A stretch of 52,407 nucleotides of DNA, the filler included, from Dirinaria sp. TL-2023a (Eukaryota): NCBI GenBank assembly GCA_051941275.1. It is 3 parts of 3 records of this genome, joined end to end, with 100 filler letters (N's around TTAATTAATTAA, not from the genome) between each part and the next. Parts side by side here need not be neighbours in the genome. Positions count along the whole stretch, not along the records: positions 35,028 to 52,407 come from JAVEBF010000431.1; 2 more parts are not named here. One strand, written 5' to 3'. The notes beneath the pieces are model-generated. The model searched no databases. It was not told where the DNA came from and saw only the letters and a program-made list of their open reading frames with translations. Of the stretch, positions 1 through 52,407 are shown one piece after another. The position numbers and the translations under genes are program-made. How positions within the stretch are numbered: position 1 is the first letter of the stretch; every line of letters begins with the position of its first letter.

Positions 1-190
1 TCATATTACTGTGATTCCAATCGCTAGACGACAGCCTGCTCCTTAACCCCAGTTTTACGAAATCCTACCTAAGCAGCGAGTTCATTCGTAAAGTAGGGTA
101 TACATAGATAGATCCCCCTTCCCCCCTGCCCCAAATGCCAATGAAACCCATTTGCGTAGCCTCAACCTGAGAACACACGACCCTCGTCTG

Positions 191-2416
191 TCACGAGCTC
201 GCAGGATTCCAATCGCTGCACCAGATAAACGTGTGGCACCTCCACTGCGTATTGCTCTCCTTGGCGCCCGAAGGCCCCAGCGGCCGCGCACACATCCAGA
301 ACGAGCGCCCGCAGTTGATGCCGCTCTTCTTCGTCAGCAGGGTGATGCACGGCTCGTCGTGGCCCTCGCAGCGCGGGGCGACGGGTTTCGTGAACAGCTT
401 CGACCAGGACTCCTTCGATGCTATGGGGTCGTGGATGGGCGGCGACTCGGTCTTGGCTGCTGCTGCTGCCGCGCTCTTGTTGGCGGCTGCCGAAGGAGAT
501 GTTGTCGTGTGGGAAGGGGGAGGAGCATCGCTCTTCCCGGCTTGAGAGCTTCGAGCTATTGGGCTTGTTGTGGTAGTAGCAGCGGCTGGAATAGCTGGGG
601 AAAGCTCCGCAACGAGCTCGTCCATCGGCCTTTCGAGTATTGGCGCAGCTGGTTGCAGTTTCGGACTTACAGGGCCTCCGTTGTTGCTTTCCGCTCCTCG
701 CGTGGCGGCCTCTTCTATTACTGTGGGGCTGGCGTCGTTGCTTGTAGTGGCCTTGGGCTTAAAGAAGCCCTTTAAACTCTGCTGACCTTTGCCTGGCGCT
801 GGGGGCGCGGCAGCTGTAGAGGCGGACTTTGAGCGTTTTAGGGGCTTGTTCGAAGGAGTGTCTGCCGACGACCGCTTTTTGCCCGTGGACGCAGAAGGAG
901 CCGTCCCTACAGAAGACTCTCCGGTGGCGCTGAGGGGCGCGGTAGCAATCGTGTTTGGCTGCGAACTGGCCATTTCGACTTTGTCAGGTGCTGGAGATGT
1001 AGAAGACGGTTTGGCTGTCGTCACAGGATGCTCATCCGTGGTGGAGCGCTGGCGGGACAGCTTGCTGGTAAACATGTCACGTATACTTCTTCGACCGTCA
1101 AACTCAGGAATAAGCTTCCCAGAAAGAGGTAGAATGTCTTTTGTCAAGTACTGTCTTTGCCGTTGACCTTTGGAGAACATGCCTTCTGGGTTCATGTAAT
1201 CCAGCAAGTCCGCTTCTGCACCGTCCACAACAACCTTGTCCTTAATGACCGCATAGACCGGGCAATGATCAGATCCCTAGACTTATGTAAGTAGGCGCAG
1301 TTGTTGCAAGGCTGGCTGTTACTTACCATTAATCCCTCCTGTATGTTCGAGTCGGAGAACCACGCCCTCATATCCAAACTACATAATACGTAGTCAATCC
1401 TTGATCCGTGGTTGCCCGGTCGTGCATTGACCTTCTGTTCCCAACACGTGAACATCCCAGGCCGTGCTGGATGGAAGCCTCGACAGATATCCCACATGAC
1501 CGCCCTCTCCCTTCCTTCGTCTCTGGCCCCGAGCACTATTCCGCCCTGTAAGAGATGGTTGAAGAAGCGCCGACTGGGTGTAGAAATGTAATCGTCGACG
1601 GTCATCGCATTCTTTCGCATAGCAGCTTCCGGGTTGGCACTGTCCAGGGGCTCTCGCGAGATATTGAGATCTCCGGTCAAGATGACCCGTTTGCCCATCG
1701 CCACTAGATTTCGGACACGAGCGTCAAGGAGGTTGAGAAACCCCAACCGGAAATCGTCTCTTGATTCGTCCCTTGTCGCTGGGCTGTAGACTCCAAGAAG
1801 GACAAAGGCGGGGAATTCCAGAATCACACAACGGCCTTCGGAATCCAAGGTCCATGCATCCACTACAGAAGTGGCCATCTGCGCATTGGTGGGATATCCT
1901 CCAATCTGCTGCTCTTTGGGCTGATCCGCAAACGTCGTCGAGGAACTCGGTGGGCAAAGAACGCCAGTGATTCCTTCTTCGGCGCGAATTGGAGCGCATT
2001 TGGACTGTCTAGTATATATGACCACGCCGGAGTACCCTTGCGGGGCTCAGTAAGACATTCCAGTAGATTTGTGTACGCGCAAGCATACCTTTCTTGTGCC
2101 TTGGTAAGCTCCAGTAGCAGTCCCACCCTGGTACAAGTACCATGTCGTCGCTGAGGTCCTTGCGCTGTATCTTGGTTTCCTGGAAGACTACAATATCTGC
2201 TTCTAGAATATCGAACATAGCCGCAAAGGTGCGTTGATCGCGCCATGGTTGGTAGCCGAATGGGTTGCTGGCGATTATCAGCCCAGGTGATGGCCATTGC
2301 ACAACAGCAGAGATACAGACCGTATGCCATTGACTGCAAAACATTCAGCTGGGCAGCGATAATAACGAAATCAAGAGGCAAGACATACCATTCCAGGTCA
2401 CTATTCGAAACCCCAT
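191..2416 (-). CDS. APN2: Class II AP endonuclease 2 (ExoIII family) with PIP box and C-terminal GRF zinc finger; 5 exons, ~671 aa
   Basis: Exons 2416-2389, 2333-2321, 2267-2089, 2036-1327, 1276-191 join in frame. Motifs: TWNVNGIR, FQETK, GYSGV, GDLNISR, GSRIDYVL, GSDHCPV, PIP-like QQSLKGFF, and GRF finger CEGHDEPC...GRSFWMC...C. Confidence 0.95.
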
Positions 2417-29962: not shown

Positions 29963-30749
29963 GCCACACCGAGCCCTGGCAAGGTGGATTGCGGACAAGC
30001 TTGCAATATCAAAAATGGAAATTCGACGCGCGACGACTGTCCTCTCACACATACATTCGAGATCCTTGCTTTCCGCGTAGTACTTCGGAGGCAGTGGCTA
30101 TAATCAATCACTCGTACCTTCGCTAAAAACGATCTGGTGTGCGGTCTTAAAGAAACATTATATGTGGAGCCTACGCAGAACACACTTCGTACTTGGCTCC
30201 GGCCCAGATATCAAGTCCAGCTGCCTGATACAACGAGAGTAATAATTTGATCGATTCAGAAGTCATCGGAAGCTATCAGGCTGCCTGGCTGTGTTTCTTC
30301 TTTCTTCTGTATTTGAGGGAAAATCTGGAGATCCCTCGGCGAAACATTATTCCTTGCGGCCTCGGCTTCCCCACCGTCATCGGGTTAATTCACTTCGCAA
30401 TGAAGTACACACAGTACAATAATACCTTAGCCAGCTGAATGAATACTTGTATCTTGTAATTAGCCAGCATTCTATCTACACCTGACCTCCACTTGTCTCG
30501 CCTCCCTCTTTCATCACCCTCTCCCTCCATTCTATGTCTCTTACTAAATCTCGGGCTTCCATTTTGTAACGTCTCCAATCTCATCAAAAGTGCGCTCACA
30601 AACGCCGCAGCTACTCCAACCACCGAAGCTAAGAGAACCTCCGAGTGCGGCCGCAACCTCGTTGTTGCTTCTCGACAGGCCAACCTTCCCTTGTATGGCA
30701 TCTTCATCTGGCCATCATTCCAAAGTCTCAAAGATCCTGAGTCGTCGCC

Positions 30750-32377: not shown

Positions 32378-33165
32378 AGGTCGCGTGACCACGATCCAGG
32401 ATTTCTTGAACCCAGAATGTTGGATTTCCTAAGGCGTCAAAGGGACAAGAACGGTTATCGAAAGCATCAAGTCTGGCGTTCAAGATCTATGTGGCCAAAA
32501 GCGATATCTGACTGAGGGGGATTCAAGTCAGGTTTCATGAATCTACAAGGATGCATTATGCATTGAAGTGGGAATGGACAGCATCATGATGGCGTAGCTG
32601 GCAGTTTATAGGGTCGTATTGACAGAGTTCGATCTCGACGGATTCTAACCTATCTCTGTAGTCCACATGACTGAGGTATCATACTGAGGAATATGGAAAC
32701 CCTACACCCAGTCCCTAAGGTACCTTACCTTACCTTTCTGACCTTTATCTCACTGATGCTTGGATCACGTGCTCAGGACGATCTGAATGACGTGCGCGAG
32801 CTTGGCACAGCTCGGCGAAGCTTGGCAGATCTTGGCATAGCTTGGCTGCGGAAAAAGCTTTCGTTCGGCTCAGATTCAACGTTGTGACTCTCCCACTGAT
32901 GATTATGATATTCTCATCAGGATGAACAACACGTCCTCTACACCTCCCTGGTGCTTTGATCTATCCCAATGTATCCCCCAACTTCCACCATGCATGACTA
33001 CCTTTGATAATAATCCAATTGGTTTGGTTACAAGGGCAAACTACAAGAGACTAAAGTCGAGCCCCAACAACCCCACACCTCCCCCCTGATCTTCTGATAT
33101 CTGTTCTATCTGATTCACCATCGTTGGGTACTCCATTGTTGGGTACTCCTCGATAACTTGCAACC

Positions 33166-34594
33166 ATGGTCCGCAATATCGTTGTCCTTGGTGGCAGCTC
33201 CCATCCCCAATTGAACGAGAAAATCTGTGATCACCTCGGTATCCCTTCCGGCAATGTCCTCCTATCCAAATTCTCCGTCGGCGAGACACGAGTCGAGATC
33301 CAAGAGTCCGTCCGTGGGAAAGATGTTTACATTCTCCAATCTGGTGGTGGAAAGGTCAACGACCACCTGATGGAACTCCTGATCGCCATATCTGCTTGCA
33401 AGACTGCGTCGGCACGGAAAGTCACGGCAGTGCTCCCTCTATTCCCCTATTCGCGACAGAGCGATATACCCTATAACAAAACTGGCGCACCGCTGAGCAA
33501 AGCGAGCAATTGCTACAACAAACCAGACTTTCCTTACTCGTTTGAGAGTAAACCCCAAACGCCGCATCCGGATCTACCGCATACCGCCGGGCTCACGAAC
33601 GGCATCGAAGGCCTGCACAAGGGCTTGACGAAATTACACGTTGACGAGGCAATCTCACAAGCAAACAGCCCGAGCTCTTCTCGCTTTGCGCACTATGAGA
33701 AAGGCCCGCCGAAAAGAAGTGACACGATGGATTCTGCGCAATCCAATGGGGGTTTGTCGTCCCACAACCACAACTCCTCCATATCGTCTCTGACCAACGG
33801 CACTTCTCATGATGAGAATAGCAACAACAACTTCGTGAGCCCAAAGAAAGACCAATTCCAGCCTCGACCGGGATACAAGCAATGGGTCGCACAAGCGGGT
33901 ACACTTGTGGCAGACCTCCTCACCTGTGCTGGCGCCGATCATATCATCACTATGGATTTGCATGATCCCCAGTATCAAGGCTTCTTCGACATCCCAGTCG
34001 ACAACCTGTACGGGCGGCCTCTCCTGAAAAGATATATTCAATATCAAATCCCCGACTTCCAGCATGCGGTGATAGTCAGTCCAGATGCTGGCGGCGCGAA
34101 GAGAGCCACAGCAATTGCTGATGGATTGGGGATGCCATTTGCCTTGATCCATAAAGTCTGCTTTTCATTCACTTTACACCCTAGTGTAAATATGCTGATA
34201 ACCGCCTGATCAGGAACGACGGCCTACGAAAATCACCGACCGCCAAAACGCCACCATGATGCTCGTTGGCGACGTCTCGAACCGCCTCGCCATCCTCGTC
34301 GACGATCTCGCCGACACCTCCAACACAATCACCCGTGCCGCGAAACTTTTGAAGAAGGAAGGCGCGACGAAAGTCTACGCGCTCTTGACCCACGGCGTCC
34401 TCAGCGGCGACGCCATTGAGCGGATCAACGCCAGCGCCTTGGACAAAGTGGTCGTCACGAACAGCGTGCCGCAGGACGAACACCAGAAACGGTGTCCGAA
34501 ACTCGAGGTGTTGGATATTGGTGGCGTGTTTGCAGAGGCGATCCGGCGTGTGCATCACGGGGAGAGCATCAGCGTCCTGTTCCAGTATGACTGA
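33166..34594 (+). CDS. PRS5: Ribose-phosphate pyrophosphokinase, Prs5-type with N-domain insertion; 2 exons
   Basis: Exons 33166-34155 and 34214-34594. Motifs [27 protein letters not shown] followed by a ~125-aa low-complexity insert, then [54 protein letters not shown]. Insert position and flanks match yeast Prs5 as I recall it. Confidence 0.92.
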
Positions 34595-36623: not shown

Positions 36624-38117
36624 ATCTTGGAGCTTGGAACTGGAAACTGCGCAGAGAGATAGAAGGGAGAGCTATTCTGCTCAGAAAGTTGTAGTGAAAA
36701 GGGAAGAAGACCGCCTGGAGAACTTAAGTAAGGAATGATAGTTGGCATGCATGCTGCGATCGTATGGTATAGCGAGAGCATTTGCTTGCGACGCGTATCT
36801 CTGCCACATTCGATATAGAATCGCCACCCCACAGCCACTATCGACGGGAAATTCTATGCCAAGAAATGACAGCAACAGCAGGCTATTGGACGGATTGCTT
36901 TGGAGCCTCACGCGCCATCAGGCGTAGAAGGATGGCCAAGGATGGCCAAGGAAAGTCGATGTGGGCAAGCCAGCGCCGACGGCTGTCCCACCTGATCTAG
37001 AGAACTGCCATCCAACGAAATGATGAGGCTGCGTGCTTGGACGAACTCGTAGCGGCGATCTCGAAGCATCAGGGAACCCGCCGTACGTCAAAGACGCGCA
37101 ATCTGAAGAAACACGCGGCTCAGCTGCTGGTCTGAGGAGTCATTCCTCACGCCCCTACTCAGCTGAATTTCCCGTCGCACAGAAAGGAGTGGTTGCATTG
37201 CAACGTTCTTGCAGATCTCAATCTTGAAGCTGACATCCATCTTCAGTTGCTGCAAGGCGGTTTCTCAATGGAAATTGTGGTCAAGCAGTTGATAGAGCCC
37301 ATACCTACCTTGTACTGATGCGATGGTCACAGCCTCAGGAGAACTTCTAGAAACCGGGTGGAGAGTAATGTGGCAAACAGGCCGAAGCTAAGCCTAATCA
37401 GGCAGCCTGGTGCAAACCCACCAAACACATGTCACTACGCTACCTAATAATGTAAGCCTGGTATCGCGATGTGGTACACCAACAGAATAATGAGGATTTG
37501 GGGTTACGCTGGGCCCCCTCTATGTTCCGAGTGCTCTTTTCCGAACCGGGGCAACGACTACTTCGAGGGCAGCGAAGCGGAAGTTTGCGCTAAATGGAGG
37601 GTTGGGAAGCGAGCGATGCGGTGTACGGAGTACCTATCATCTGGGAGTTTACCGAGGTGGGGTGTGCTTGCCTTGACAAGTTCTTACTGGTGGCGTCTGG
37701 ATTGTTGGAACGATCTCATGAAGCTTGCAAGGTGTCAGGACCCCAACTCTGGGTTAGATGAGGTAGGTAAGTAGGTTTACCCAGGTCAAGGCCTTGGCAA
37801 CAATGGTAAGGTGGTTACCAAAAGACCAACGAAACCAAGTCAGCGACTTGGTTGCCTATCTTACTACTTGATGTTCCGAGATCGTAATACAAGGGGGGAT
37901 TATGGAAATGATTTACCTGCGTGTAATGCCACCTGTGTTTGATGACCATTGAATAGCAATTTCTTGAAATACTAGAATACATGTTGAGGTCATGATGTGG
38001 TTTCTTGGTAGTTGCTGCAACGTATCTACAACCAGCATCACGGAGATAACATCGCTATTTCCTTGGAGTTCATCGTCTAATGCTCGGCATCTGTTCCTGC
38101 GTACAACCACTCTCCTT

Positions 38118-41100
38118 TCACCCATCAAACGCATCCTCGTCTAAGACCTGCCCACTCAGCATCTGTCCAACATGGCTCTGCATGAAATTCTGCCCGTGTC
38201 GACGGATTGCCATCCATTCCCTCATGAAAGGCAAGACCCAGGTTGCCTGCGAAAGATCCTCCAACGCCTCGCGATATTCTGCATCTGAATCGAAGTAGAG
38301 CTGCCCTGCAAAGAAGTGGAGCTGGCGGCGTAGTGCCGGACGGAGCCTCAGCCAATCACGATTTGACTGTAAGTTTGCTGCGATGGCTGACTCCATTGAA
38401 TGCATCGATCTGGCGACTCGGGGCTCATAACTGTGGAGTACAACTTGCGAGGAAGTTTGTCTGATCTCGTCCATCATGACGTTGACTTCGTACTGGGAAA
38501 GGACTAGCATTCCTTGGGAATTGATGTCGGTTTTACTTGTCAAGATCCAATTGACTGGTCGGAGGTGGTCATCATGAGCTGCAGAGACCGGAAGTTTCAC
38601 AGTGTACATAAAGCCCCGCGTGACTCGAATATCGTTCCATAACCCATGCGACGGCATGATCAGATGCGCAGCAGATGATCTTCGTGCAATCGCGTTTACT
38701 GCAAGTTCAAAACGGCCTAAGCTTTCTGCGGACCCTGAAGTGATAAAGTGCTTGAGTCTCTCATCAAAGATAGGTTTTAATGCATCCGCTGATGACGGTC
38801 GCTCGTTTTCTTTTTCCTGCTCTTTTTCATGTGCAATCTCTCGTTCCTGTTCCTCTTCCACATTCGCATTCTGTGCTGCAGTGAGACCCAAAACTTTCCA
38901 TTTTTGAACCAAAGCTTGAACGGCAGGATTGGTACTTTGTGCACTAACTTTCAGTAGACTCATAGTGGAGCTATCACTATCCGTCATGGAAGTAGGTGCG
39001 TAGAGGTGGTGAAGACTCTGCAATTCCGTTTCAATGAAGGAGGTTGCGGTGGTATTCCCAGCGGAATATTCTTCAGCGACCTGTTGGCGACGGTAGAAGG
39101 CGAGTCCCTGCATGATTTGTAGAGGCTGGTTCCTCTCTATGTTCAGACAGCTCTGCTCGAGCGCCCAAGTCATGACATCTTCGCCGTTCAACATTGCGTC
39201 CTTGCCCTTGCCAGTAACTTTCAACATGTCGTTATGTACTTCTGGCGGCGCTACGAAAAGAAGAGTCTGACCGTGGGCCAGACGTCGAAGTCTCATGCAA
39301 GCTGTAATTTGTCAGTGGAGTTAGCCGTCGGAGCAATGGCAGTGTACATACCTTGAACAAGGCGGTCCTTGGTAAGGCGAGGCCCTAGTGTCACGAAGGC
39401 GCGAGCATCTGTTGGTAGTTTAAGGTCAATTCCTCGGGTGTGCACTTCGTCAAGGTAGACCAGGCAGCTATCCATTCGAGTCTGGTAAGAGGAGGAGTTA
39501 AAGGCTTCTACTGTCCAGCCTTCGCGGGTCAACACCTTGATGTTGTCGTCGGTATCGAAGAAGATGCCCGCGTCGGCTTCAGGCACTCGTGTGATCCACT
39601 TCTTCATTACCTCTTCGTTACCCATCTCTAACACTTGCGCGCCAACATCGATAAGCACCCGAGCTTTAGAGTCTGTGCTAGTGATGAAGTCGAGAAGCGC
39701 TTCAGCATCAAGTTGCCGTCCGTCTTGGTCCTTGGCACACTCATAACGAAGGTTTTGCGGCTTAAGAACGTAGTCAAGGACCTTAGCACTCGTGTGTTGC
39801 AGCTCCGTCAGATCTCTCTGCGTTATTGAAGACGGTAGCAGGAATCTGTTGTCATTGGTACCACTGAACCCGGTGGTAGAAGACGGCCCTGCAGGGTCGA
39901 AAGGAATATCCCATCCAGAAGTCGACAATTTCTGGTCAAACTCTCTCCCCTCACGCGGGAAAACCACTTTTGCCATGAAGAAATCGGCCACCTTCTTGAT
40001 GTAGCGGAGCGCTGGAAACAGAGTGTTGATGCACTGGTCTTCGTCGTCTAGATTGATACATTCCCAAATTCGCAGGAACAACGGCAAGGAAGCGCAATTT
40101 TGTGTCCAGGAGCGGTACTCCTGTGAAGGATTGTCGGTTTTTGAGAGGATTTCGAAGCATTGACGTAGCTGGACGTCGGTTAGCCCTCTATAGTAGTAGC
40201 TCAAGCATGTCAATGTAATCGTAACGTCCGGATGACCGAAGTCAGCAGTACCAGCAGGTACTCCTTTTGCACGGTATGGAACCGCAATAAGGCATCTATC
40301 CGGATGGTGACCGTAATTTACCAACCAACGCTTCCTCTGTAATATAAACAGTAAGATTCCATAAGCAAAGAGACCCCGGAAAAGGAGGAACTTCTTGATC
40401 ATAGCTGGATCTCCTTGGGTGATTCTCTCTACTCGCTGGCAGTCAATCTGAGCAACATCCATGTGCTCCATAAACGCAATAATCGCCTTCCTGTCATCGT
40501 TCGTGTACTTCTCAAGGTTGATCCCGGGAATTTTGCTTCGTTCAAGGTCCTCAAGCAGCTTTTTGAGAAGCATGTCTCCAACATCTGGGACGAGCATTTG
40601 GATCGTCGGGAAACTTAAGCCCGTACGCTTCTGTACTTGAATGAGTTCTGAGTGAGAGTATGCCAAAGCTTCTGCGTGCTTTGCGACTAGGCCGAGGATG
40701 CTTTGTATCAGAAGCCAACGTTCTGGTTGGCCATCGACACTCCGCTGACTTCCCAAAGTATATATCAGTTGGAACTTGACGTCAAGGATCTCATCGCTCT
40801 CGTCGAGCAAATCTCTCGCTGTAACATTCAACCACTGCTGAATGTCAAAGAGTCTCGTAGCGATGGCATGGTCACCTGCACTCATCCGCTCGAGACCCTT
40901 GAGCTTGAAGGATAAAAGGAATTCGGGCTGCGTGAGAAGGACTCCACGGTTCGTCACACATTCCTCCTGCAGTATCTGCAGTTGTAATAGTAGCTCCTTA
41001 GTGACAGATGTCTTCCTTGAGAAGGGCATGTAGTAGACTTGACGGCGGACAAGGCTCCCAATACGTGCGCTTAGAAGGTCTTTCATCTGTTTCGACAGAG

Positions 41101-44100
41101 ACTTCAGTACTAGAACCCTCGAAAGCTGCGTGCTATCCGCTAGTGCTGTCGCAATTAGAGGAACGATAACTGAAGACTTGCCCTCCTGTGGAGATTTAGT
41201 ACAACTCCTTCGAAGGGGAAGGACCACTTACGCCCATATTCAATTGCGTCAGGGTGTTGCTTCGTGCTGCCGGCTGTATCATCTCCAGAGCTACAATTGC
41301 TTGGGTATGTCGAATCAATAGATCATTTTCCACTTCTATCAACAGCCAGTCCCGCCATTTTTTAGGATCCCATGAGGATCGACCCGTATTCTCGATTTCT
41401 GCCCAGAATGTGGAGTAGTCGTTCTTTTCCGCGGCTAGTAATAAGCGTCTATCGCGCTGGCAGTAGGTGATCATCTCGGCAAGACCTACAAGGCGTTCAA
41501 TCCAATCGTCACTGATAAAGCGATCATTCGAGGACGAGAGCAATCGTAGCAGGTCAACTTGAGTGGCTCTGGGCGCCAAGCCTCCCATTTCAAGCAAATT
41601 CAAAGAATGTCGCAAAGGATGACAGGAATAGAAATGGGCTAGTCGAAAACAGTTGGTGTTCTCCCCAAGACTCTGGGCTATCTCTTCGGTGTTATAAGGC
41701 AACTCCATTGCATCTGCCAGTTCCTGATAAGTCCAATAGCTATTATAACTTGCAACTAGATCCTGAATGTACTGTCGGCGTATCGTGTTTGCCGAAGCAG
41801 GGTCGGGAATTTTCTTAAATTTAGACAGGACATTACGCAGATGGTTGTTCCTTAGCGGTGTGCTTGCTGGTCTTGTCGCATGAAGTTGGCTTGGTATTAT
41901 CCACTGAGATGGAGCAGTTGCAGATAACATTGACTCAAGGGTTGGCAGAGAACATGCTTCGTGGGCGATTGATACTTTCTGGACTTGCAACCAGTTCTTG
42001 GGAGCAGCGACGCGTTTTGCCACGTGAATGCTGTTCAAGATTCCCTGAGCCGATCGAAGTGCGGTTTCCAATTTTCTATTTTGCCACCATTGGTTGAATG
42101 CTGAAAGAACACGATCGCTCATCTGTGAAAGGTCAAACAGCCCTGTCAACTCGGCCGTAGGTAATTGGGGCTCTCGGCAGGGCCACTGCTGCATAAGGTG
42201 GTTGGTAATGTCATTGGCCCGGTCAGTGAGCGTACGCTGATTTTCGGTTGACTGGTCCTTGCGCTGCGTAATAGATAAACCATGGCTAGACGACCGAAAC
42301 GACTTCGAGCTGGCCATGATCTGGGCTTTGAGATGTTCTTGCTCTGGTGCACTACGCAATGGAAATTCGAAGACTCCTGGTCCAAAATGCAAATCGATAT
42401 CGCGCAATTCTGGATTAATCGCGAACGCGCAGAGGGTTTGAAGATCCACCAAAGACGTCAGAGCATCACCGTATGCTATGGTGGCAAACAAAAACAACAT
42501 CGTGTGTTCGTGCTCGGCTTGAGTGCAATCGATGCAAAATCGATGTAACTTGGCCCACGAAGTCTTGAAATCGATGTTCAGGAGTTCTGCTAAGGATGCC
42601 GAAGTTTGAAATTTAGAGCCGAATCCTGACACCTCCCCCCATGCTCGGAGATTATTTATGACGCGCTTTGATACCTCGATGCGTGCAGGCCACTTGCGAA
42701 TGAGACAGCCCATATTGAAGCTCCGCTTGCCTCTGTCAGAGAGTGGAAGTCTATCGCGTGATTCGTAATTCATGTCATTAGCAACGATGTCAATATTTCC
42801 ACCAAATTGCGGTCTCCGAAAAGCCGAGCGACGAATTTGTGCCCTTAACAGAAGGTGGGAACTTCCACGAACTTTCAATGGTGGTATTCGGGCACAGTCG
42901 GGGTAAAACAGATTGAAACGATCACTAGCTGTCTGTATTGCGGCGCAGTGAGTGGCAAAATCGTCGTGCTGGCAATAGTGTGGTAGTATTCGGTTCCACG
43001 ACACGTCCTCCATGACCTCCAGATGAACGGGATAAAATTCCCGTTTAGGCGTTAAATTTGCGAGCTGCCTCAACATCTCCGCCACCTCCTCATCAAGCGG
43101 GGACGAAGAATACACTAATTCGGTCTGAAGCATGTCCAGAGCTTGCTCGGTGCCTGTCCGTCCTGTTAAAGGGTCGGCGCAAATGTAAGAGGTAGTCGCA
43201 TGTAGATAGGCTAGGTAAAGCCTACTCAACATGATACTATGGCCCCGAAGCCGACCCAATTGCGAATCGATTTGGTATGTGAAGAATCTCACGCTCTCGA
43301 AGGGATATGAGATCTGGATTTCTACATGATGTGTGCTGCTCTTGCAGCAGCTAATTGACCCCTGTGGAACTAACAGTAAGCGATCGTGCTCGCGCCCAAA
43401 TTCTCCTGGGGAACAAAGAACCAATTTGCTCTTCAGGCCGATCAACGTTCCGATGCTTTGGTTGGGGTCCACAATCTTACGAAGTTCTAAACATTCCAAT
43501 TCACCCGATCTGTTGGTGAAGAAATGTAAGCGCAGGCGCGGCAAGTATACTTCGACTGAGCCTTTGGTGGAGCTGGTAATATGCATGTGAGGTAAGGCCT
43601 CTATCGGGCCGAGAATTTGGAATACAGATTGACTCGTTGAGCTGCGTATGTCGACCAACTTCTGGGCTCCCCGGATACAAACGCTGCGACCGGCAGAGTC
43701 ATACTGTAGCTGCCAATTTGACGCATTTGGACACAGAGGCCGCTCTGACGGCCGGAATTCGACGGTACGAGCCGACAAATCCAACCAATGGATGTGTCTG
43801 TTGACGAAATCTTGCGGAAAGTCGCCGTCGAAGTATTCGCTGGGGATCGCCTCCATTATATGGTGGGGTGTTTTCAGCCTTATGATAACCTGGTGATCGC
43901 GCCTTCCGAAATGCACCTCATAACCTTGAACATTCTGAGCGGACATGTATTGCATTCCCGGCATATTCGATGCACAAACAGAGAAGACCTGGGATCCAAA
44001 TATGCGTCGGAACAAGTCGGTGTCATACATCCTCTTCGGTAAATGACCCAACGGCTTTCCGTTAACGAGCAATTTCCCTTGAAGGAGATTATAGCTCACA

Positions 44101-47100
44101 AATTGGGATCCTTGTTCAAGTGCAGCTGAGGTCTTAGTAGTTACCCAGCGGCCATTGGGAGCCGGTAATGACGTCCACGGTTCAGAGTGGGGCTCAAACT
44201 TGGGCCAGACTTTCGTTATTGCTTGTACCAGTCCAAAGCCATTGCTGTCTATGATCAGCTTACGCAATTTCCCACATATTGTGGATGATAGCTTCTGATC
44301 CTTGAGAAGCAGACGCTGCAGTCCTTGAGGAAGGGCCGCAATTGATCCTGGTACATTGTCGTGAATGACCATGGATGCGCGTACCCAGCATTGTACGTCG
44401 GAAAGTTGAAGCAATGCGTCCATTTGCATGATGTCGAGGTCATAAGTCATCTTTGCCAACAACGCGACTTTTAGGAGTTTGGACCGGACCTCCTGTGCGC
44501 GTCTGGGATCAACTGTCTGTCTCAGGATTTTGCTTAAATTGTCGATCCAGGTGGATGTAATAGTTCGACATCTTTGAAGGAGCGATACCCCAATATCGAA
44601 CACTTTCCTGTTCTTTGTAAGCGAGACAACTCGGAGAACTAGTGCTACCAATAAACTCAGCGTCTGCTGGCTTGTCCAGTTTCCTTCGGCCGTATCAATG
44701 ATTGTACGTATCGTGGAAAGAAGATCGTTGCAGAAAGACGCAGATTGCAATGGCTGGTGGGAGCGTCTGTATATCGTATCACTGCTCGATCCAACTTGCC
44801 AAGCTGCTTGTACGATAACCGTGACGACAGCCTCCGAATTGAGAGACAGATTGGGCGCGCCAAGCTCGCGCTTGATATTCAACCATTGCGTTTGCTCGCC
44901 ATCCGCCCTCAGGGAGCCAAAAGCCTTGTATTCCTGTAGCGTCATCTCTTCACTGCAGAGAGACTGCTCTGCCAGCGTGCGGTTCTGAGAATGATTGGTC
45001 GAATAGACGGCATATTGAAGGTTCTTGTATGGCCCTTCCGGAAGAGATGTAATGCAACGGGGCAAGAAACTCCGAATTCCTTTTTGTGAGGATGTCCAGA
45101 TGTTGTTGAAGGTGTCATAGTACTGATAGACTAGGGGATTCTCACGAAAAACCTCTGTCACTTTCACAGGGAATTTTGTTGTAAGGTAATGAGTCTTCGT
45201 GTGCGATTTCATATCTGAGGCTAATGTTATCCGCGACTCGCAATGAGTACGGTAGGCTTGCAGACCGTCGTAAGTCAGAACCGTATCGCGTGGCCTATAA
45301 GAGGAAGCTTCATAAACTTGCGCAAGATCTTTAACGATCATCCATGTCACATTGCGCCAAGTCGCTAGAGCCGTTGGACATCTTAATTCGACTACGGCAG
45401 CTCTGCATTCGTTTTCTGATTTCGGCAACGGCCATTCCATAAACTCAATTTGAATGGATCCGGTGTCTTTTTCAAGCCGGCATTTCTCGCATTCAGAAGC
45501 ATTATGAGATCCCTTTTCATCATTGCATTTAAGAGCTGCAGCTTGGGATCGAAGCTCTTCAAACGACTCCTGCTTAGTCTGCCACTCCTCTTTCTTCCTG
45601 TTTGTGAGTCTCTCCGCATCTGCTTCGATTCGAGTCCTCAGAATTTGATGCTCTTGTGAAGATTCGAACAGCTCAGCTGCGAATTGGGGCGAGGTTAGTA
45701 CAGAAGGATTCTCTCGTTTGGCAATCGCTTTTCGCCAAGATATGTGGCGCTCAATCCCCATCAAGCGCCCCATATCCGTTTCCTTCGGTAAAAGCAGAGG
45801 GCAGAAGAGTTCTTCAGAGAGCTCAGGAGAGTATTCTCCGAGCAACGGAATGAGGGCGACAGCAAGGATGTCCAGCGCCCGCCATAGTTCTCCGATTGTA
45901 AGGATAGCCGTGGACGTTTGCTCAGGCGCCTCGTGATAGACTCCTGGCACACCACCCTTTCCGAGTACGCTCTGTTTATATTCATAACACAGCGACGCTA
46001 TGTTGGCGCAGTGCTCGTCGGTTGGTGCCTTCTTACTTTCCATCACCCAGTGCCACAAATTATCACGCACCCAGCTTTCAAATTGCTGGAACGCAAATAC
46101 CCGATCATCGCCCTTGAGCGAGAATACAGAGCTGTCGGGAAGGCCATCCGGGCGAAGGATCATTAGTCGAGGACACTTGGGCGAAAAGTGAATGGGAGCA
46201 CCGCCTCTGCCAGACTTGACCTTTAGTACGCGATCAAGGTAGAAATTGGAAGAAGTCAAAGCGATGTGGGTATCTTCCTCAATGCGGCAGATGTCGACCG
46301 TGTTACCATATGAAGCATCTGCGTCTTGAATTTTGTTCCACAGCTGCCCCTGTGCGAAACTGAACTCCTGAGCAAGCTCCAAAGCTCTCTTCTCTATTGG
46401 CGAAAAGATATGAGTTCGAAGCTTGTAAGCGCGACGAGAGATCTTGGCTTGGACTGTGAAAAGTATCTCTCTTGGGAGGCTCAGAGACGTTGCCAATTCC
46501 ATAATGTTGGTTAGTAGGAATAGCACGAAGTTCTTGTACTCACGTCGCGCTTGTTCTGCGGATAGAGTCTGCGTGAGTAGTAACTGAATTGTCACTCTGA
46601 GAGCGAGCCATTGAGGAGATCGGCGCCATGGTAGAAGCGTCTTATGCCACAATGATTCATCTCTTGTACGCTTCTCGATTTGACGGACTCTTATAGGCTC
46701 TCCCACAGCTCCAAGGGTCGCCATGAGCATTTCGGTCACGAGCCTTGGATGGACAGTATCCCTTACTTCAGGCGTCTCCGCTTCGGCCTTTATAGCGACA
46801 GGCATCATCTCTTTCACTTTTTCGGAGGCCAGTTTCCTAAGTTGTTCGCCTAGCTCAAGCTGGAAAAGATGGTTAGTGAAGATTTGATCTGGAACGGATA
46901 CTGCGTGGGCCGGAAACTGTCGGCGGAGAGCTCCCTTGCAAGCAAGGACCGCGCTGGTGTAAGGTGAGAGCTCGAAGCACTCGAATACAGCGCCGCTCGC
47001 TGTTTTGCGTATGACCAAAGCGGCATTCTGTGCCTTGATTACTAGGGCAAGGGAATCTATGTCGTGTTAGATCAAATGGGGTCGACTATCGAGTAACTTA

Positions 47101-47390
47101 CCACCGGAGCTCAATGATGATAGCGTTTGCAGGAATGTGTCGACTACTAAAGTATCGTCGGCACTCAATAGGAGCCATTGCGCCAGCATCCGCTCCACAC
47201 TTTCCCAAGTCACAGCAGCTTCTGGTGATGTATGTTGGATAAATTCTTGTGCCGAAGAATGGATCAGCTGTAAAAGGTCTCGCTCTGCGCACAAAGCAGC
47301 GCTTTCGGGCTCGGCCTTCGAGGGAAGCCGTGGGGGTAAGACGACATGGTTGACGATATAGTCGAGCGATTCTCGTGTGATGCTTACCAT
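38118..47390 (-). CDS. Giant DUF6606/DUF3638/DUF3645-type protein with SF2-helicase-like P-loop NTPase; 4 exons, ~3043 aa
   Basis: Exons 47390-47102, 47056-41232, 41185-39352, 39301-38118 total 9132 nt with consistent phases. N-terminal LDYIVNHVVLPPRLP and IKAQNAALVIR; Walker A QLNMGEGKSSVIVP; Walker B LLDESDEILD; AVPYRAKGVP..ADFGHPDVTITLTCLSYYY; GFSGTND; LIDVGAQVLE; YLDEVHTRGIDLKLP; DRLVQACMRLRRL; EEEQEREIAHEKEQE. Confidence 0.9.
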
Positions 47391-50156: not shown

Positions 50157-50782
50157 GAAGAGCAGCGCTTGCTAACTCTAGTATGTTACTGCGTCCAGAT
50201 CGATTTTAGAATCTGTATGTGAACTATGTGCAGTAAACGCTTCATAACATAAGGTCCATACAGTCGCGAGGACGCGGATGCACAATCATCAAAAATTTTC
50301 GGCCGAACATTTCGCCACGCTGCATGACATCTTTTCAATTGTGAGAGTGACAATCTTGTAAATAGGACCTGCGAGTACGATGTAGAGGAGTATCTCAATG
50401 CCTCTTCACTGCTGAGCCACGTTGAACGAGATTTGAGGAACCTAACTTAGTCCTACATCTTGAGCTTCTAACGCCCAGGTATTGGGCGTCGAAATCACTC
50501 CCTTGATCATGCTGGACATGCAGAGCCTCTTTATATGGCGTCATTCCGGTAACAAAGGCAGTGTGAGATCCGAGCTATCATATGGTACTTGATCCACGCT
50601 ACATGGCAAAAGGTTGTTAGAGTGAGTGAGAGATGAAGCTTAAGGTAGAGAGTACTTTAGGTCAAGGGTCCTCAAACGCCAAGCTCTCTATCAAATTATG
50701 CATACACTAAATAGGCGCGTCCCACGCGTTGACCAACCAGAGCATGATCAGACTTTCCAATCCACTTGGGACGATGATCCAG

Positions 50783-52407
50783 ATGCCTTTAAGAGCTCTT
50801 CGACTCTCTGCCGCGCATTCTAATGCAGTCGCAGAGCCGTTCATCTGTTTGCCATGTCGCTATCGTAGAGCGCTATCCATTGCAGCTCAAGCAGCCAAAC
50901 CGCAATCCACAGCCCCTCTTCGGACGTCTCGCCTACGAAAAGCTTCAACATTATCATCAGTCACTACCGTCAATGCGTCTAAGCAGATACTTCCAGCCGC
51001 TCGAGATCTGTATGAAGCGCTTGGGGTTCTGAAAGAGGAAGCTGGTGTCTACACCAGCCTCATTCAGCTTCAATTGGCTCTGAAGGGCTTAGAATCTCAG
51101 AATGCGGTCACCAAGGTAGCTTGTGAGCGACCAGCAGGGCATACAATGCAAGCTTTACATGGCTGATACTCAGCAGTAATCGGCGCCAATGGACTCGATG
51201 GAGTCAAAAGGCTGGCAAGAGTCTTGCTAGCAGATCCTTTGGCCCCTGAATCCGAATGGGAAAAACGACTTGTGGCAGCTGAACATGCAGATGAACGAGC
51301 GGTGCTACTACGGTAAGTAGACGCTACGTGATTCGTCCTTGTAGCTGACCTATTCTCGAAGCTATGAAGACAACGACTCTTACGATGGAAGGCATCCGCT
51401 TTTGCGGCAATTAGGAATCCCGGCGCCAGTCCTTCGTAGAAACAACCTGGAAATCTTAGTACAAGCCATTTCACCAACTACTTCAACTAACACCGACGTA
51501 CACGCTCTCCTGACCCCAAACCTGGAATTAGCTCCTTCACCAACAGCTCGATACGCTGTCGTGACAAACGCAATGCACAAGGCGTTGGTCTATAGTGAAG
51601 GGTTACAAAACCTGCCCGTCTACACGCCGGTCATAGAGGCGGAAGGTGCAGAAAAGGAGATGGTCAAAGGTGCAATCAACATACGCGATAGCGGACCCCA
51701 CGTTCCCGAGGAGGCGTCTCCCATTGTTCAGATCAACATTGAACGAGCCGAAGCCGCCCTACAAACAATCCGCAACTCGCTCGACAACTCAATCGACTAC
51801 GAGCAACTATGGTTCTCCAGCGGTCTCCCTGCCCTCTCATCCTGGCTCCAAGAAGGCACAGCCTCTGACCAATCAGCAATCAAGCCTACCGTCCAGCGAC
51901 TCATCGAGTCCCTGCTCTCAATCACAGATGCTCGCATTAGAACCGCAGAGACGGAACATCTCCAAAGACTCGCCTCCACGGCAATAACGCCCACCACTCG
52001 CTCGAACCTCTCCGCGCTCCTCGCCCAATGGTCGGAAAACGCACACACGGAGCTCCGCGACCAGCTGGATGTAACCTTCGACAGCCCCAGCTGGCGAAAA
52101 CTCGCGTGGTGGAAGCTTCCGTGGCGAGTGGATGACGTGGCCATGATCGCCGCGGATGTACTGCAGCGATCTTTCCTCACGAGGGCCGAAAAAGAATTGG
52201 CGTGGCTAGTGGGGAGAATCGAGCAAGCCGGGTTATACGTCCCACCAGTACCGAAACCCACCGTAGAAAAGGATACCACGGAAGGCGAGATCCCTCCCAC
52301 GCGACAATCAGCACTCATCACCCCGTCCCTCGTATCCCTAGAACTTGAATCAACCCCTCCAACTTCCACTGTCCCGAACCCTTCCCTAAAACCCCCCACA
52401 TCAACAC
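50783..52407 (+). CDS. Mmc1-domain-like mitochondrial protein, 3' end truncated by the window end
   Basis: Exons 50783-51122, 51177-51312, 51362->52407 (alternative ATG at 50774). Arg/Ser-rich presequence, LQLALKGLE, RLARVLLADPL..E..WE, YEQLWFSSGLPALSSWL, WSENAHTELRDQLD, WRKLAWWKLPWRVDDV, AEKELAWLVGRIEQAG. Confidence 0.75.

What the first reader, a model, noticed from the sequence alone, without database searches (positions are those of the whole stretch)
38118..47390. Intact ~3043-aa giant protein with a full SF2-helicase-like motif set and unknown function
Seen: a Q-motif-like LLIRHTQ, Walker A MGEGKS (split exactly by an intron at 41231-41186), PEFLLS, Walker B DESD, motif III-like SGT, motif V-like HTRGIDL and motif VI-like QACMRLRR. 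It also has a Cys/His cluster (CNDEKGSHNASECEKC) after a coiled coil and about 2000 aa of N-terminal sequence with no evident function. From memory: DUF3638/DUF3645 proteins are patchily distributed, often multi-copy, and automatically labelled ubiquitinyl hydrolase, but I see no OTU or USP catalytic boxes here. Inference: an active nucleic-acid- or protein-translocating ATPase, plausibly for defence or non-self surveillance, by loose analogy with other giant immune ATPases.
Basis: partly seen in the sequence, partly recalled or inferred. Interest (0 to 1): 0.7.

Follow-up and report, generated by a model that had tools for sequence, protein, structure and literature searches.

The report
Giant SecA-like ATPase, protease-like head
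This lichen-fungus gene is real, intact and transcribed, and it is one more member of a very large but never-studied family of 3,000-residue proteins that join a working-looking ATP motor to a protease-shaped head that has lost its catalytic cysteine.

Summary
RNA contigs from a closely related lichen show introns 2 and 3 spliced out.

It is an ordinary member of the Pfam DUF6606-DUF3638-DUF3645 family (3,287 representative clusters). This scan has met the family before on other DNA (e1-7577896, e1-632314, e1-671077).

The model of residues 1901-3043 has a tandem RecA motor. Its best structural matches are SecA, with DEAD-box and RIG-I helicases tied on Z. Like SecA it has a GEGK[ST] P-loop and about 310 residues between Walker B and the xGT motif. 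All ATP-site residues are conserved.

Residues 1-345 (DUF6606) fold like the cysteine-protease-like plus cap domains of Legionella AnkH/AnkD/LegA15 (Z about 15). No cysteine is conserved, so the "ubiquitinyl hydrolase" label is not supported. The Cys/His cluster is a conserved, probably zinc-binding site.

The defence idea is neither shown nor refuted. Relatives occur as tandem paralogs, beside transposons and once fused to HET. This copy, however, lies among housekeeping genes and its tree follows taxonomy. Function is still unknown.

The parts
38118..47390 (-). Whole gene: ATG at 47390, stop codon 38120-38118; 3,043 codons in 4 exons
   Evidence: Identical to database protein P0004.
47102..47390 (-). 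Exon 1 (residues 1-96 plus the first base of codon 97)
   Evidence: DUF6606 profile positions 1-80 lie here.
47057..47101 (-). Intron 1, 45 nt, GT..AG
   Evidence: No RNA cover. Supported by the DUF6606 profile running on across it and by alignment with relatives.
41232..47056 (-). Exon 2 (residues 97-2038)
41186..41231 (-). Intron 2, 46 nt, GT..AG; splits Walker A as MG|EGKS
   Evidence: RNA contigs of runs X1 and X3 skip it (table 5).
39352..41185 (-). Exon 3 (residues 2039-2649 plus the first base of codon 2650)
39302..39351 (-). Intron 3, 50 nt, GT..AG; splits motif VI (Q|ACMRLRR region)
   Evidence: RNA contigs of X1, X2 and X3 skip it (table 5).
38118..39301 (-). Exon 4 (rest of codon 2650 to residue 3043, plus the stop)
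46311..47390 (-). Head, residues 1-345 (includes intron 1). Pfam DUF6606 covers 12-282. Protease-like fold plus helical cap. Invariant H15, Q106-N107, E125, T197; no conserved Cys.
   Evidence: Pfam. Model pLDDT 90.4. LegA15 Z 15.7 and AnkH Z 14.8; AnkD Z 14.8. Conservation.
45537..46310 (-). Helical scaffold, residues 346-603, ending in a 40-residue helix (564-603)
   Evidence: Model. Only weak matches to helical repeats, Z 6-8.
44736..45536 (-). Cys/His-rich alpha/beta domain, residues 604-870. Tetrad 1 is C607/H614/C619/C622 (45480-45527). Candidate tetrad 2 is H719/C764/C797/H863. EWPLP 637-641 is conserved.
   Evidence: C619 and C622 41/41; position 607 C or H in 40/41; position 614 H or C in 37/41; H719 39/42; C764 41/42; C797 40/41; H863 42/42.
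41379..44735 (-). Middle region, residues 871-1989. No Pfam family. Only 871-900 and 1901-1989 were modelled.
   Evidence: no family. 27-39% identity to relatives. The Atlas look-up gave only noise.
40664..41378 (-). RecA-like domain 1 = Pfam DUF3638, residues 1990-2212 (includes intron 2). Contains Q-motif R2012/Q2015, Walker A 2037-2042, PEFLLS 2125-2130 and Walker B DESD 2166-2169 (40793-40804).
39947..40663 (-). All-helical insertion between the two RecA domains, residues 2213-2451. Holds Pfam DUF3645 (2332-2364; 40208-40306).
   Evidence: The DUF3645 loop is highly conserved (V2340, P2341, K2345 and H2356 invariant) but modelled at pLDDT 51-67.
39210..39946 (-). RecA-like domain 2, residues 2452-2680 (includes intron 3). 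Contains TGFSGTN with SGT 2479-2481, DVGAQ 2551-2555, HTRGIDL 2620-2626 and QACMRLRR 2649-2656.
39063..39185 (-). 41-residue helix after RecA2, residues 2689-2729. It lies within the model range that the SecA alignments span.
   Evidence: Model helix 789-829. SecA alignments run from model residue 28 to 865-906.
38121..39062 (-). C-terminal region, residues 2730-3043: an acidic helix (about 2775-2802) and an alpha/beta domain (about 2830-3043). Fold not identified.
   Evidence: Model. Conserved RPVxW, FAGQLY and RRxG..H.G. The Atlas gave its own family at 0.98 and only a 0.78 lead to Strawberry-notch Helicase_C_4.

Best explanation
SHOWN. The gene is intact, spliced as read, and transcribed in a closely related lichen. 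It encodes a 3,043-residue member of the DUF6606-DUF3638-DUF3645 family.

Its last third is a two-RecA ATP motor in which every ATP-site residue is conserved. These are the Q-motif R/Q, the GEGKS lysine, DESD, the motif V arginine and the two motif VI arginines. The motor is laid out like SecA. It has a GEGK[ST] P-loop, about 310 residues of inserted domain between Walker B and an xGT motif, an RG[TI]D[IL]KL motif V, and a long helix after RecA2.

Its first 345 residues fold like the cysteine-protease-like plus cap domains of the Legionella effectors AnkH, AnkD and LegA15. No cysteine is conserved there.

Between head and motor lie a helical scaffold, a domain with two conserved Cys/His tetrads, and about 1,000 residues that I could not model.

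INFERRED. By strand position and by spacing, the invariant N107, E125 and T197 sit where AnkH/LegA15 have His, Asp/Asn and Cys (18 and 72 residues apart here, against 22 and 71 in LegA15). So the head is most likely a non-proteolytic recognition module, or an enzyme of some other chemistry, and not a deubiquitinase.

I propose that ATP hydrolysis in the motor pulls on or remodels a polymer that the head and the zinc domain recognise. I favour a polypeptide or protein complex over nucleic acid, because of the SecA-type layout and the protease-derived head.

The biological role is unknown. The family as a whole behaves like accessory, conflict-type genes. This copy behaves like a vertically inherited but fast-changing gene.
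For: Gene and splicing.

Family: Pfam E 8e-87, 9.2e-83 and 2.3e-14. 3,287 representative clusters at E <= 1e-3, of which 1,281 at <= 1e-30.

Motor. The model of 1901-3043 has pLDDT 82.0 and pTM 0.74. Foldseek against PDB gave 87 matches at E <= 1e-3. The 14 rows shown at ranks 1-14 are all SecA or SecA2 (best 1.3e-8), followed by MDA5, DinG, RapA, RIG-I and XPD. VIA gave SecA 3jv2_A Z 16.9 with 415 aligned and 6itc_A Z 16.0 with 559 aligned, against Dbp5 Z 16.0 with 350 aligned.

Invariant in 64 of 64 aligned sequences: R2012, Q2015, D2166, E2167, D2169, G2477-T2481, R2622, R2653 and R2655. G2038 and E2039-K2041 are at >= 90%.

Motif spacing read from sequences fetched here. In the giant, I to II is 128 residues, II to xGT 313, and xGT to RGxD 143. 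In SecA of locus L086 the same gaps are 105, 312 and 118. In the DEAD-box protein of L087, II to SAT is only 31.

Head. The model of 1-900 has pLDDT 90.4. LegA15 7xql_A gave Z 15.7, rmsd 3.9 and 262 aligned over model 5..338; AnkH 6mca gave Z 14.8. An independent scan of 48,161 chains put AnkD 7ew8_A and AnkH on top at Z 14.8, with the next match at Z 9.1. The N-terminal parts of giant-virus DUF3638 proteins match at E 9.5e-5 and 3.9e-4.

Head conservation: N107 53/53, E125 58/58, T197 61/66, H15 26/26, and no Cys column at >= 80%.

Triads of the Legionella proteins, from passages I read: H243-D258-C324 in AnkH (PMC6712400) and H268-N290-C361 in LegA15 (PMC9757750).

Zinc-type tetrads.
Against: No sequence-level link to any solved protein. 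phmmer and family profiles against PDB found nothing. hhalign of the family profile against a SecA sequence found nothing, and against a DEAD-box protein only 15 residues at Walker B, with probability 2%.

By Z-score SecA, DEAD-box and RIG-I are tied (16.9, 16.0 and 15.3). 'SecA-like' therefore rests on aligned length, Foldseek order and motif spacing.

The inserted domain is all-helical in the model. From memory, SecA's preprotein-binding domain is not.

The P-loop stretch (model 131-150, pLDDT 66 and 56) and the DUF3645 loop (pLDDT 51-67) are the least confident parts of the motor.

For the head, Foldseek's own E-value was only 0.046, and classical clan CE proteases were not among the 50 rows shown.

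The N107-E125-T197 mapping has no residue-level superposition behind it, because the tools give ranges only.

Three invariant residues at a 'dead' site could mean a live enzyme of another chemistry. LegA15 is reported to be an atypical GTPase that uses its cysteine (PMC9757750).

Nothing here shows what the motor moves.
Confidence: 0.4

Rival explanations
1. It is a nucleic-acid-dependent SF2 helicase or translocase. It would act as a giant RIG-I/MDA5-style sensor or effector of non-self RNA or DNA, used in fungal defence or allorecognition.
For: RIG-I, MDA5, LGP2, DEAD-box, DinG, XPD and FANCM all match the motor at Z 14-16, tied with SecA.

The only profile-level sequence match is to a DEAD-box Walker B.

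The head carries many invariant basic residues: K225, R241, R242, K271, K301, R305 and K308.

Family behaviour fits conflict genes:
- Second copies within 20 kb in 4 of 81 loci.
- Two >90% identical copies on one Kalaharituber contig.
- Neighbours that include DUF3435, gag/pol and an integrase.
- One DUF6606+HET fusion, P0307.
- A strain-specific copy in an A. oryzae table (PMC6237848).
- A DUF3638-bearing family listed among the large gene families of microsporidia (figure legend of PMC5423893).
- A gene ranked among the most polymorphic of a Plasmodiophora effector set (preprint 10.64898/2026.10.14.759018).
Against: No nucleic-acid-binding domain was found by Pfam.

There are about 313 residues between Walker B and the xGT motif, as in SecA (312). 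The DEAD-box protein I compared has 31.

No PADLOC match, and no NACHT or NB-ARC domain.

This copy lies among housekeeping genes. The tree of the best named relatives follows taxonomy, and each named lichen MAG appears once in the hit list.

One HET fusion out of 56 short hits is thin evidence.
Confidence: 0.25
2. The head is a live enzyme. It could be a deubiquitinase or ubiquitin-like protease, as the automatic 'ubiquitinyl hydrolase 1' label says. Or it could be a LegA15-like nucleotide hydrolase using T197, E125, N107 and H15. The motor would then feed substrates to it.
For: The fold matches a protease-like domain at Z about 15.

H15, Q106, N107, E125 and T197 are invariant or nearly so.

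The AnkH triad is reported as needed for function in vivo (PMC6712400).

LegA15 is reported as a GTPase (PMC9757750).

Giant-virus relatives that share the N-terminal architecture carry the hydrolase label.
Against: No conserved cysteine anywhere in DUF6606. No OTU or UCH domain.

AnkH itself showed no protease activity in vitro (PMC6712400).

As far as I could see the label is automatic. No paper in the library studies the family: there are 7 incidental mentions of DUF3638/DUF3645 and none of DUF6606.
Confidence: 0.12
3. It is a conserved housekeeping scaffold or remodeller with no role in conflict, for example in protein quality control or assembly of ribonucleoprotein complexes. Its low conservation would simply reflect a large, loosely constrained protein.
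For: Its neighbours are housekeeping genes: PRPP synthetase, Sds3, Med12, CIA30 and Mmc1.

The gene tree of 32 named relatives follows taxonomy. Caliciales are sister to a monophyletic Teloschistaceae, and the Penicillium/Aspergillus and Botryosphaeriales clades are separate. Each named lichen MAG appears once in the hit list.

Transcripts are present in a natural thallus.

The family reaches Pezizomycetes and Orbiliomycetes.
Against: Overall identity is only 48% to Heterodermia, which I recall as the same order, and 40-43% to Teloschistaceae.

Terminal branches are 0.4-0.5 changes per site even in the best-conserved core.

Of the 34 differences listed against the RNA contigs, 23 change the residue. 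These are 34 of 324, a chosen subset, mostly in the tail.

There are tandem paralogs and transposon neighbours elsewhere.

None of the 80 related metagenome loci shares any neighbour with this window.
Confidence: 0.2

Closest known systems
Pfam DUF6606 (PF20255) - DUF3638 (PF12340) - DUF3645 (PF12359) giant proteins of fungi and other eukaryotes, e.g. P0005 (Heterodermia), P0064 (Aplosporella prunicola), P0313 (Fulvia fulva, UniRef 'ubiquitinyl hydrolase 1')
   Same: It has all three domains in the same order, the same length of about 3,000 residues, and aligns collinearly end to end. It is a member.
   Different: Nothing of kind. Identity to the nearest named relative is only 48%. No member has a tested function in the library searched.
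SecA, the bacterial preprotein-translocase ATPase (PDB 1tf2, 3jv2, 6itc, 5eul)
   Same: It is the best structural match of the motor: Foldseek 1.3e-8, and Z 16.9 with 415-559 residues aligned. They share a GEGK[ST] P-loop, DE[VS]D[SE]IL at Walker B, about 312 residues between Walker B and xGT, RG[TI]D[IL]KL, and a long helix after RecA2.
   Different: No Pfam SecA family is matched and hhalign finds nothing. The inserted domain is all-helical. The motor sits in a 3,043-residue eukaryotic protein behind 2,000 other residues. No sign of a membrane channel partner was seen.
DEAD-box and RIG-I-like SF2 helicases (Dbp5 3fht, eIF4A 9avr, RIG-I 7jl3, MDA5 5jcf)
   Same: Tandem RecA fold, with Z 15-16 and about 350 residues aligned. 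Walker B context ILDE[SA]D..LD.
   Different: There is no SAT-type motif about 30 residues after Walker B. The xGT motif lies 313 residues downstream instead. Pfam gives no helicase family hit.
Cysteine-protease-like (clan CE-type) plus cap domains of Legionella effectors AnkH/LegA3, AnkD and LegA15 (PDB 6mca, 7ew8, 7kj6, 7xql)
   Same: The fold of residues about 3-345: Z 14.8-15.7 with 252-265 residues aligned, well clear of the next match at Z 9. The spacing of the three candidate site residues is similar.
   Different: No ankyrin repeats. The His-Asp/Asn-Cys triad is not kept: there is no conserved Cys, and N107, E125 and T197 are invariant instead. Sequence identity is 8-10%, and profiles find no match.
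N-terminal parts of giant-virus DUF3638 proteins (BFVD A0A3G5A476 Harvfovirus, A0A1V0SH35 Hokovirus)
   Same: The N-terminal architecture matches over 607-642 alignment columns, at E 9.5e-5 and 3.9e-4.
   Different: I did not see their sequences. A scan of IMG/VR using motifs from the fungal alignment found no relative.

Membership tests
DUF6606-DUF3638-DUF3645 giant proteins (Pfam) | All three Pfam families above their curated cut-offs, in N-to-C order | tested here: met
   PF20255 at 278.1 bits (cut-off 27), residues 12-282. PF12340 at 290.7 bits (31), residues 1990-2212. PF12359 at 52.8 bits (25), residues 2332-2364.
DUF6606-DUF3638-DUF3645 giant proteins (Pfam) | About 3,000 residues, collinear with full-length relatives | tested here: met
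   aligned over 2,786-2,985 of 3,043 residues with four full-length relatives.
SF2-type (DEAD-motor) ATPases | Two tandem RecA-like domains | tested here: met
   Model. 87 PDB matches at E <= 1e-3; the rows shown are SecA/SecA2 or SF2-type ATPases. Z 14-17 across both domains.
SF2-type (DEAD-motor) ATPases | Conserved Walker A lysine, Walker B DExD and motif VI arginines | tested here: met
   D2166, E2167, D2169, R2622, R2653 and R2655 invariant in 64/64; K2041 at >= 90%.
SF2-type (DEAD-motor) ATPases | Nucleic-acid-stimulated ATPase or unwinding activity | not testable with these tools
   Needs biochemistry.
SecA family | Sequence membership (Pfam SecA_DEAD and related models) | tested here: not met
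   No SecA family at E <= 5. hhalign of the family profile against the SecA of L086 found nothing.
SecA family | Large domain inserted between Walker B and the xGT motif | tested here: met
   313 residues here and 312 in SecA of L086, against 31 in the DEAD-box protein of L087.
SecA family | Preprotein-binding (PPXD) fold of the insertion, and helical scaffold domain | tested here: inconclusive
   The insertion is all-helical in the model. SecA alignments reach 559 residues and span the 41-residue helix after RecA2.
Clan CE / AnkH-type cysteine-protease-like domain | Fold | tested here: met
   LegA15 Z 15.7, AnkH Z 14.8 and AnkD Z 14.8. Classical CE proteases themselves are not among the rows shown, so the link to clan CE rests on the AnkH paper (PMC6712400).
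Clan CE / AnkH-type cysteine-protease-like domain | Conserved His - Asp/Asn/Glu - Cys catalytic triad | tested here: not met
   no Cys column at >= 80% among 66 DUF6606 sequences. The only conserved His is H15, in the N-terminal helix. N107, E125 and T197 are invariant at the positions inferred to be equivalent.
OTU / USP deubiquitinases ('ubiquitinyl hydrolase 1' label) | OTU or UCH catalytic domain | tested here: not met
   only the three DUF families at E <= 5.
Fungal NLR / STAND receptors | NACHT or NB-ARC NTPase domain | tested here: not met
   none.
Known prokaryotic anti-phage defence proteins (PADLOC) | Match to any PADLOC model | tested here: not met
   0 families at E <= 1.

The most novel reading that the evidence does not exclude
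These proteins are a eukaryotic, cytosolic descendant of a SecA-type polypeptide motor. The motor has been coupled to a protease-derived head that has lost its nucleophile, and the whole works as a conflict or surveillance machine: the head and zinc domain recognise a foreign or modified protein, perhaps one tagged with ubiquitin or a ubiquitin-like protein, and the motor unfolds or extracts it. The same head would have been borrowed by intracellular bacteria (the Legionella AnkH/AnkD/LegA15 effectors). Whole genes occur in giant viruses and in Coxiellaceae and chlamydial symbionts, which would make the family a traded weapon between protists or fungi and their parasites.
Probability: 0.12. 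Interest if true: 0.8.

Novelty: new member of a known kind. Interest (0 to 1): 0.45.

Why it matters
The family is very large: 3,287 clusters at 50% identity match the motor. It is found across Pezizomycotina and in protists, giant viruses and intracellular bacteria. In the library searched it has no experimental paper.

This copy adds nothing new in kind, but the work here makes the family more testable:
- The ATPase is predicted to be active, and point mutants can be named.
- The automatic 'deubiquitinase' label does not fit the fungal head.
- The head's nearest solved relatives are three Legionella effector structures.
- The Cys/His cluster is a conserved metal-type site.
- A lichen transcript confirms two of the three introns.

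If the motor acts on polypeptides, it would be a cytosolic eukaryotic counterpart of SecA-type motors.

Tried and rejected
1. VTD deubiquitinases. I recalled that the VTD family (PMC9741609) might include these giants. The passages I read describe fungal VTDs fused to RBR ligases and contain no occurrence of 'ATPase' or 'P-loop'. Recollection dropped.
2. Sequence searches of PDB with exons 2 and 3 and with profiles A2 and A3 gave only chance rows at E >= 0.037.
3. PADLOC: no match.
4. The whole genome of the window is not held, so copy number, synteny and isolate variation could not be done.
5. ESM Atlas. The C-terminal exon gave its own family plus a 0.78 lead to Strawberry-notch Helicase_C_4. 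Residues 900-1900 gave 0.78 noise, integrase-like clusters. Neither was used.
6. The IMG/VR scan with A2 found no relative; 19 pattern hits were unconfirmed. The metagenome scan with the single exon-3 protein found none.
7. Synteny. No homologue of 8 ORFs from the window's neighbouring genes was found in the 80 related metagenome loci (tblastn 1e-5). These loci are only 34-51% identical, so this says little about orthologues.
8. hhalign of the N-terminal profile against the first 500 residues of a Parachlamydiaceae relative gave nothing. hhalign of the motor profile against one SecA and one DEAD-box sequence gave nothing useful.
9. The paper search for 'ubiquitinyl hydrolase 1' with 'giant', 'P-loop' and 'fungi' listed nothing on the family among the 10 rows shown of 92.
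10. RNA contigs leave 47056-47382 and parts of the 5' half uncovered. That is no evidence about those parts.
11. I looked at two neighbouring ORFs as yardsticks for evolutionary rate. Both look partly disordered, so I dropped the comparison. The 'fast-evolving' statement is therefore not calibrated against other genes of these species.
12. The careful tree search did not finish in 288 s. The tree cited is the quick one, with SH-aLRT support only.

Full report
**1. The observation**

The region holds four long minus-strand frames. I joined them at three short GT..AG introns: 47101-47057, 41231-41186 and 39351-39302. This gives one ORF of 3,043 codons running from ATG 47390 to a stop ending at 38118.

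The product is identical to a database protein, P0004, 'MAG: hypothetical protein Q9191_003594 [Dirinaria sp. TL-2023a]'.

- Intron 3 splits motif VI.

Four RNA runs of one lichen sample hold contigs that are 95-99% alike to the gene. They come from a close relative, not this strain. They cover 23-25 of 30 bins in three of the runs. They skip exactly the 50-nt intron 3 in 3 of 4 runs and the 46-nt intron 2 in 2 of 4 runs.

Intron 1 has no RNA cover. It is supported by the DUF6606 profile running on from exon 1 into exon 2 and by alignment with relatives.

**2. The family**

Pfam finds DUF6606 (12-282, E 9.2e-83), DUF3638 (1990-2212, E 8e-87) and DUF3645 (2332-2364, E 2.3e-14), and nothing else at E <= 5.

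| Search | Result |
|---|---|
| Exon 3 (611 aa) against 1.84 billion representatives | 3,287 hits at E <= 1e-3; 1,281 at <= 1e-30 |
| Word-index search, longer proteins | 1,305 hits at E <= 1e-5 among 7,999 scored |

The best word-index hits are lichen-forming Lecanoromycetes, then Penicillium, Diplodia and others. Several carry UniRef's 'ubiquitinyl hydrolase 1' label. Named members also come from Pezizomycetes, Orbiliomycetes and Dothideomycetes.

Five bacterial loci encode relatives of the motor. They are MAGs (metagenome-assembled genome bins) of Coxiellaceae, Parachlamydiaceae, a gammaproteobacterium, Chlamydiae and Parachlamydiales. Three have open frames of 2,463-3,237 residues that hit DUF3638 only.

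The literature library holds 7 papers that mention DUF3638 or DUF3645, all in passing, and none that mentions DUF6606.

This scan has met the family before on other DNA. Notes e1-7577896, e1-632314 and e1-671077 call the motor SecA-like. Notes e1-5462056 and e1-4870350 describe a cysteine-enzyme head in a giant virus and a chlamydia. I treated these as leads and tested them here.

**3. The motor**

I folded residues 1901-3043 with a 40-sequence alignment. The model has pLDDT 82.0 and pTM 0.74. It shows:

- a RecA-like domain that carries Walker A and DESD;
- an all-helical insertion that contains DUF3645;
- a second RecA-like domain that carries TGFSGTN, DVGAQ, HTRGIDL and QACMRLRR;
- a 41-residue helix after that;
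- an acidic helix and a final alpha/beta domain.

Foldseek against PDB gave 87 matches at E <= 1e-3. The 14 rows shown at ranks 1-14 are all SecA or SecA2 (best 1.3e-8). MDA5, DinG, RapA, RIG-I and XPD follow.

| Match (VIA second look) | Z | Residues aligned |
|---|---|---|
| SecA 3jv2_A | 16.9 | 415 |
| SecA 6itc_A | 16.0 | 559 |
| Dbp5 | 16.0 | 350 |
| eIF4A | 15.6 | not noted |
| RIG-I | 15.3 | not noted |

By Z these are tied. SecA stands out only by aligned length and by Foldseek order.

To check the SecA likeness on sequence, I fetched a SecA and a DEAD-box gene from the Parachlamydiaceae genome behind L082. hhalign of the family profile against either found nothing beyond 15 residues at the DEAD-box Walker B. 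The motif layout, however, agrees with SecA:

| Feature | This protein | SecA (L086) | DEAD-box (L087) |
|---|---|---|---|
| P-loop | GEGKS | GEGKT | GTGKT |
| Walker B to xGT / SAT | 313 residues | 312 | 31 |
| Motif V context | RGIDLKL | RGTDIKL | not compared |

In 64 aligned family members R2012, Q2015, D2166, E2167, D2169, G2477-T2481, R2622, R2653 and R2655 are invariant, and G2038 and E2039-K2041 are at >= 90%. I conclude that this is an active ATPase of the DEAD-motor type, arranged like SecA.

Caveat: the P-loop stretch and the DUF3645 loop are the least confident parts of the model, with pLDDT 51-67.

**4. The head**

I folded residues 1-900 with 66 sequences. The model has pLDDT 90.4.

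- Foldseek against PDB gave no E <= 1e-3. Its top real rows were Legionella LegA15 (E 0.046, probability 1.00) and AnkH.
- VIA gave LegA15 7xql_A Z 15.7 (rmsd 3.9, 262 aligned, model 5..338 against chain 166..460), 7kj6_A Z 15.2 and AnkH 6mca Z 14.8. The next row had Z 9.0 and covered only short helices.
- An independent scan of 48,161 chain representatives put AnkD 7ew8_A and AnkH first, both at Z 14.8, with the next at Z 9.1.

From the AnkH paper (passages read, PMC6712400):

- The domain is a clan CE-type (XopD/Ulp1-like) cysteine-protease-like domain plus a cap.
- Its triad is H243-D258-C324.
- No protease activity was detected in vitro.

From the LegA15 paper (passages read, PMC9757750):

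- The putative triad is H268-N290-C361.
- The protein is reported as an atypical GTPase that needs C361.

In 66 DUF6606 sequences no cysteine column reaches 80%. The invariant residues are:

| Residue | Conserved in |
|---|---|
| H15 | 26/26 |
| Q106, N107 | 53/53 each |
| E125 | 58/58 |
| T197 | 61/66 |
| P200 | 65/66 |
| K225 | 65/66 |
| W240-S243 | 64-65 of 65 |
| K271 | 65/65 |
| K301, R305 | 63/64 each |
| K308 | 64/64 |

In the model N107 opens a strand (108-114), E125 closes the next strand (118-125), and T197 precedes helix 201-214. These are the places the AnkH paper describes for His, Asp and Cys. The spacings are 18 and 72 residues, against 22 and 71 in LegA15 and 15 and 66 in AnkH.

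This mapping is an inference. The tools give alignment ranges, not residue pairs.

I therefore read the fungal head as a protease-derived module without the thiol nucleophile, and the 'ubiquitinyl hydrolase' label as unsupported for this protein.

The first 900 residues also match the N-terminal parts of giant-virus DUF3638 proteins (Harvfovirus E 9.5e-5, Hokovirus E 3.9e-4). The N-terminal architecture is therefore family-wide.

**5. The Cys/His cluster**

After a 40-residue helix (564-603) come C607, H614, C619 and C622. Conservation:

| Position | Conserved in |
|---|---|
| 607 | C or H in 40/41 |
| 614 | H or C in 37/41 |
| C619, C622 | 41/41 each |
| H719 | 39/42 |
| C764 | 41/42 |
| C797 | 40/41 |
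| H863 | 42/42 |

The first four form one tetrad and the last four a second candidate set. That both bind zinc is inference.

Residues 871-1989 have no Pfam family, and only their two ends were modelled.

**6. Is it a defence gene?**

*For, from relatives.*

- Among 81 related loci, 4 hold a second motor copy within 20 kb (L045, L057, L058, L063). L026 and L063 lie on one 36-kb contig.
- Kalaharituber has two >90% identical copies on one contig.
- Downstream neighbours include DUF3435, gag/pol and an integrase. They also include ordinary genes.
- One 936-residue protein, P0307, joins DUF6606 to a HET domain.

*For, from this gene.*

- Overall identity is 48% to Heterodermia and 40-43% to Teloschistaceae. 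The motor is at 54-68% and the middle at 33-39%.
- Of the 34 differences listed against the RNA contigs, 23 change the residue. These are 34 of 324, a chosen subset, mostly in the tail.

*Against.*

- The window's other genes are housekeeping.
- A quick tree of the 32 named relatives follows taxonomy.
- Each of the 17 named lichen MAGs appears once among the 120 listed hits.
- Transcripts are present in a natural thallus.
- There is no PADLOC, NACHT or HET match in this protein.

Copy number and synteny in its own genome could not be tested. The idea stays open.

**7. Verdict**

- Its interpretation is right about the ATPase and untested on defence.
- The gene is a new member of a known, catalogued family whose function is unknown.
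- My preferred mechanism is a SecA-type motor that remodels a protein substrate recognised by a nucleophile-less protease-like head and a zinc domain. I give it a confidence of 0.4. A nucleic-acid helicase or sensor is the main rival.

Noticed in passing
window 38050-38087: RNA contigs of three runs skip 38 nt just downstream of the stop codon. The ends are CA..GG on the plus strand, which is not a canonical intron on either strand. It is probably an indel between the window's strain and the RNA's source.
   Followed up: no
window 41810, 43521 (also 40633, 42097, 42636): Some RNA contigs carry single-base gaps or an extra base inside the coding sequence, at depth about 5. Two of these recur in three runs of the same sample, and in X3 they occur beside an ungapped form. 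Two sit in short homopolymers. If real, one haplotype of the relative would be frameshifted.
   Followed up: partly
P0307 (JGI metagenome protein, 936 aa): DUF6606 (residues 5-195) is followed by a HET heterokaryon-incompatibility domain (430-585) in one open frame. It is the only such fusion among 56 short DUF6606 hits.
   Followed up: partly
L045:6215-15439 (-), L057:6522-15840 (+), L058:12543-14438 (+), L026 and L063 (one contig): Family members sit next to a second copy, either tail-to-tail or in tandem. In L058 the two motor cores are only 5.5 kb apart, so the second copy may lack most of the N-terminal region.
   Followed up: partly
L011:14591-15625 and 19247-19909; L014:11767-12876: Family members lie next to a DUF3435 protein (which I recall as the tyrosine-recombinase family of Crypton/Starship elements), gag/pol fragments and an integrase-core protein.
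   Followed up: no
L005:16716-17456, L010:11143-13227: Dynamin-family genes lie downstream of two different family members. L005 also has a UvrD-type helicase at 20172-23501.
   Followed up: no
G001 (genome behind L082): C2:973268-973816, C1:95366-95914, C1:59939-60487: This Parachlamydiaceae genome has three more open frames of 3,062-3,085 residues with weak Pfam DEAD hits, besides the 3,237-residue DUF3638 protein. They may be further giant paralogs.
   Followed up: no
window 18466-22816 (-): A PDR/CDR-type ABC transporter is read as two long frames (475 and 812 aa), presumably one gene with an intron. Elsewhere in the window there are Med12/SRB8 (9752-12656), CIA30 (6680-7480), Sds3 (30741-32377), PRPP synthetase (33157-34209) and Mmc1 (50711-52406).
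   Followed up: partly
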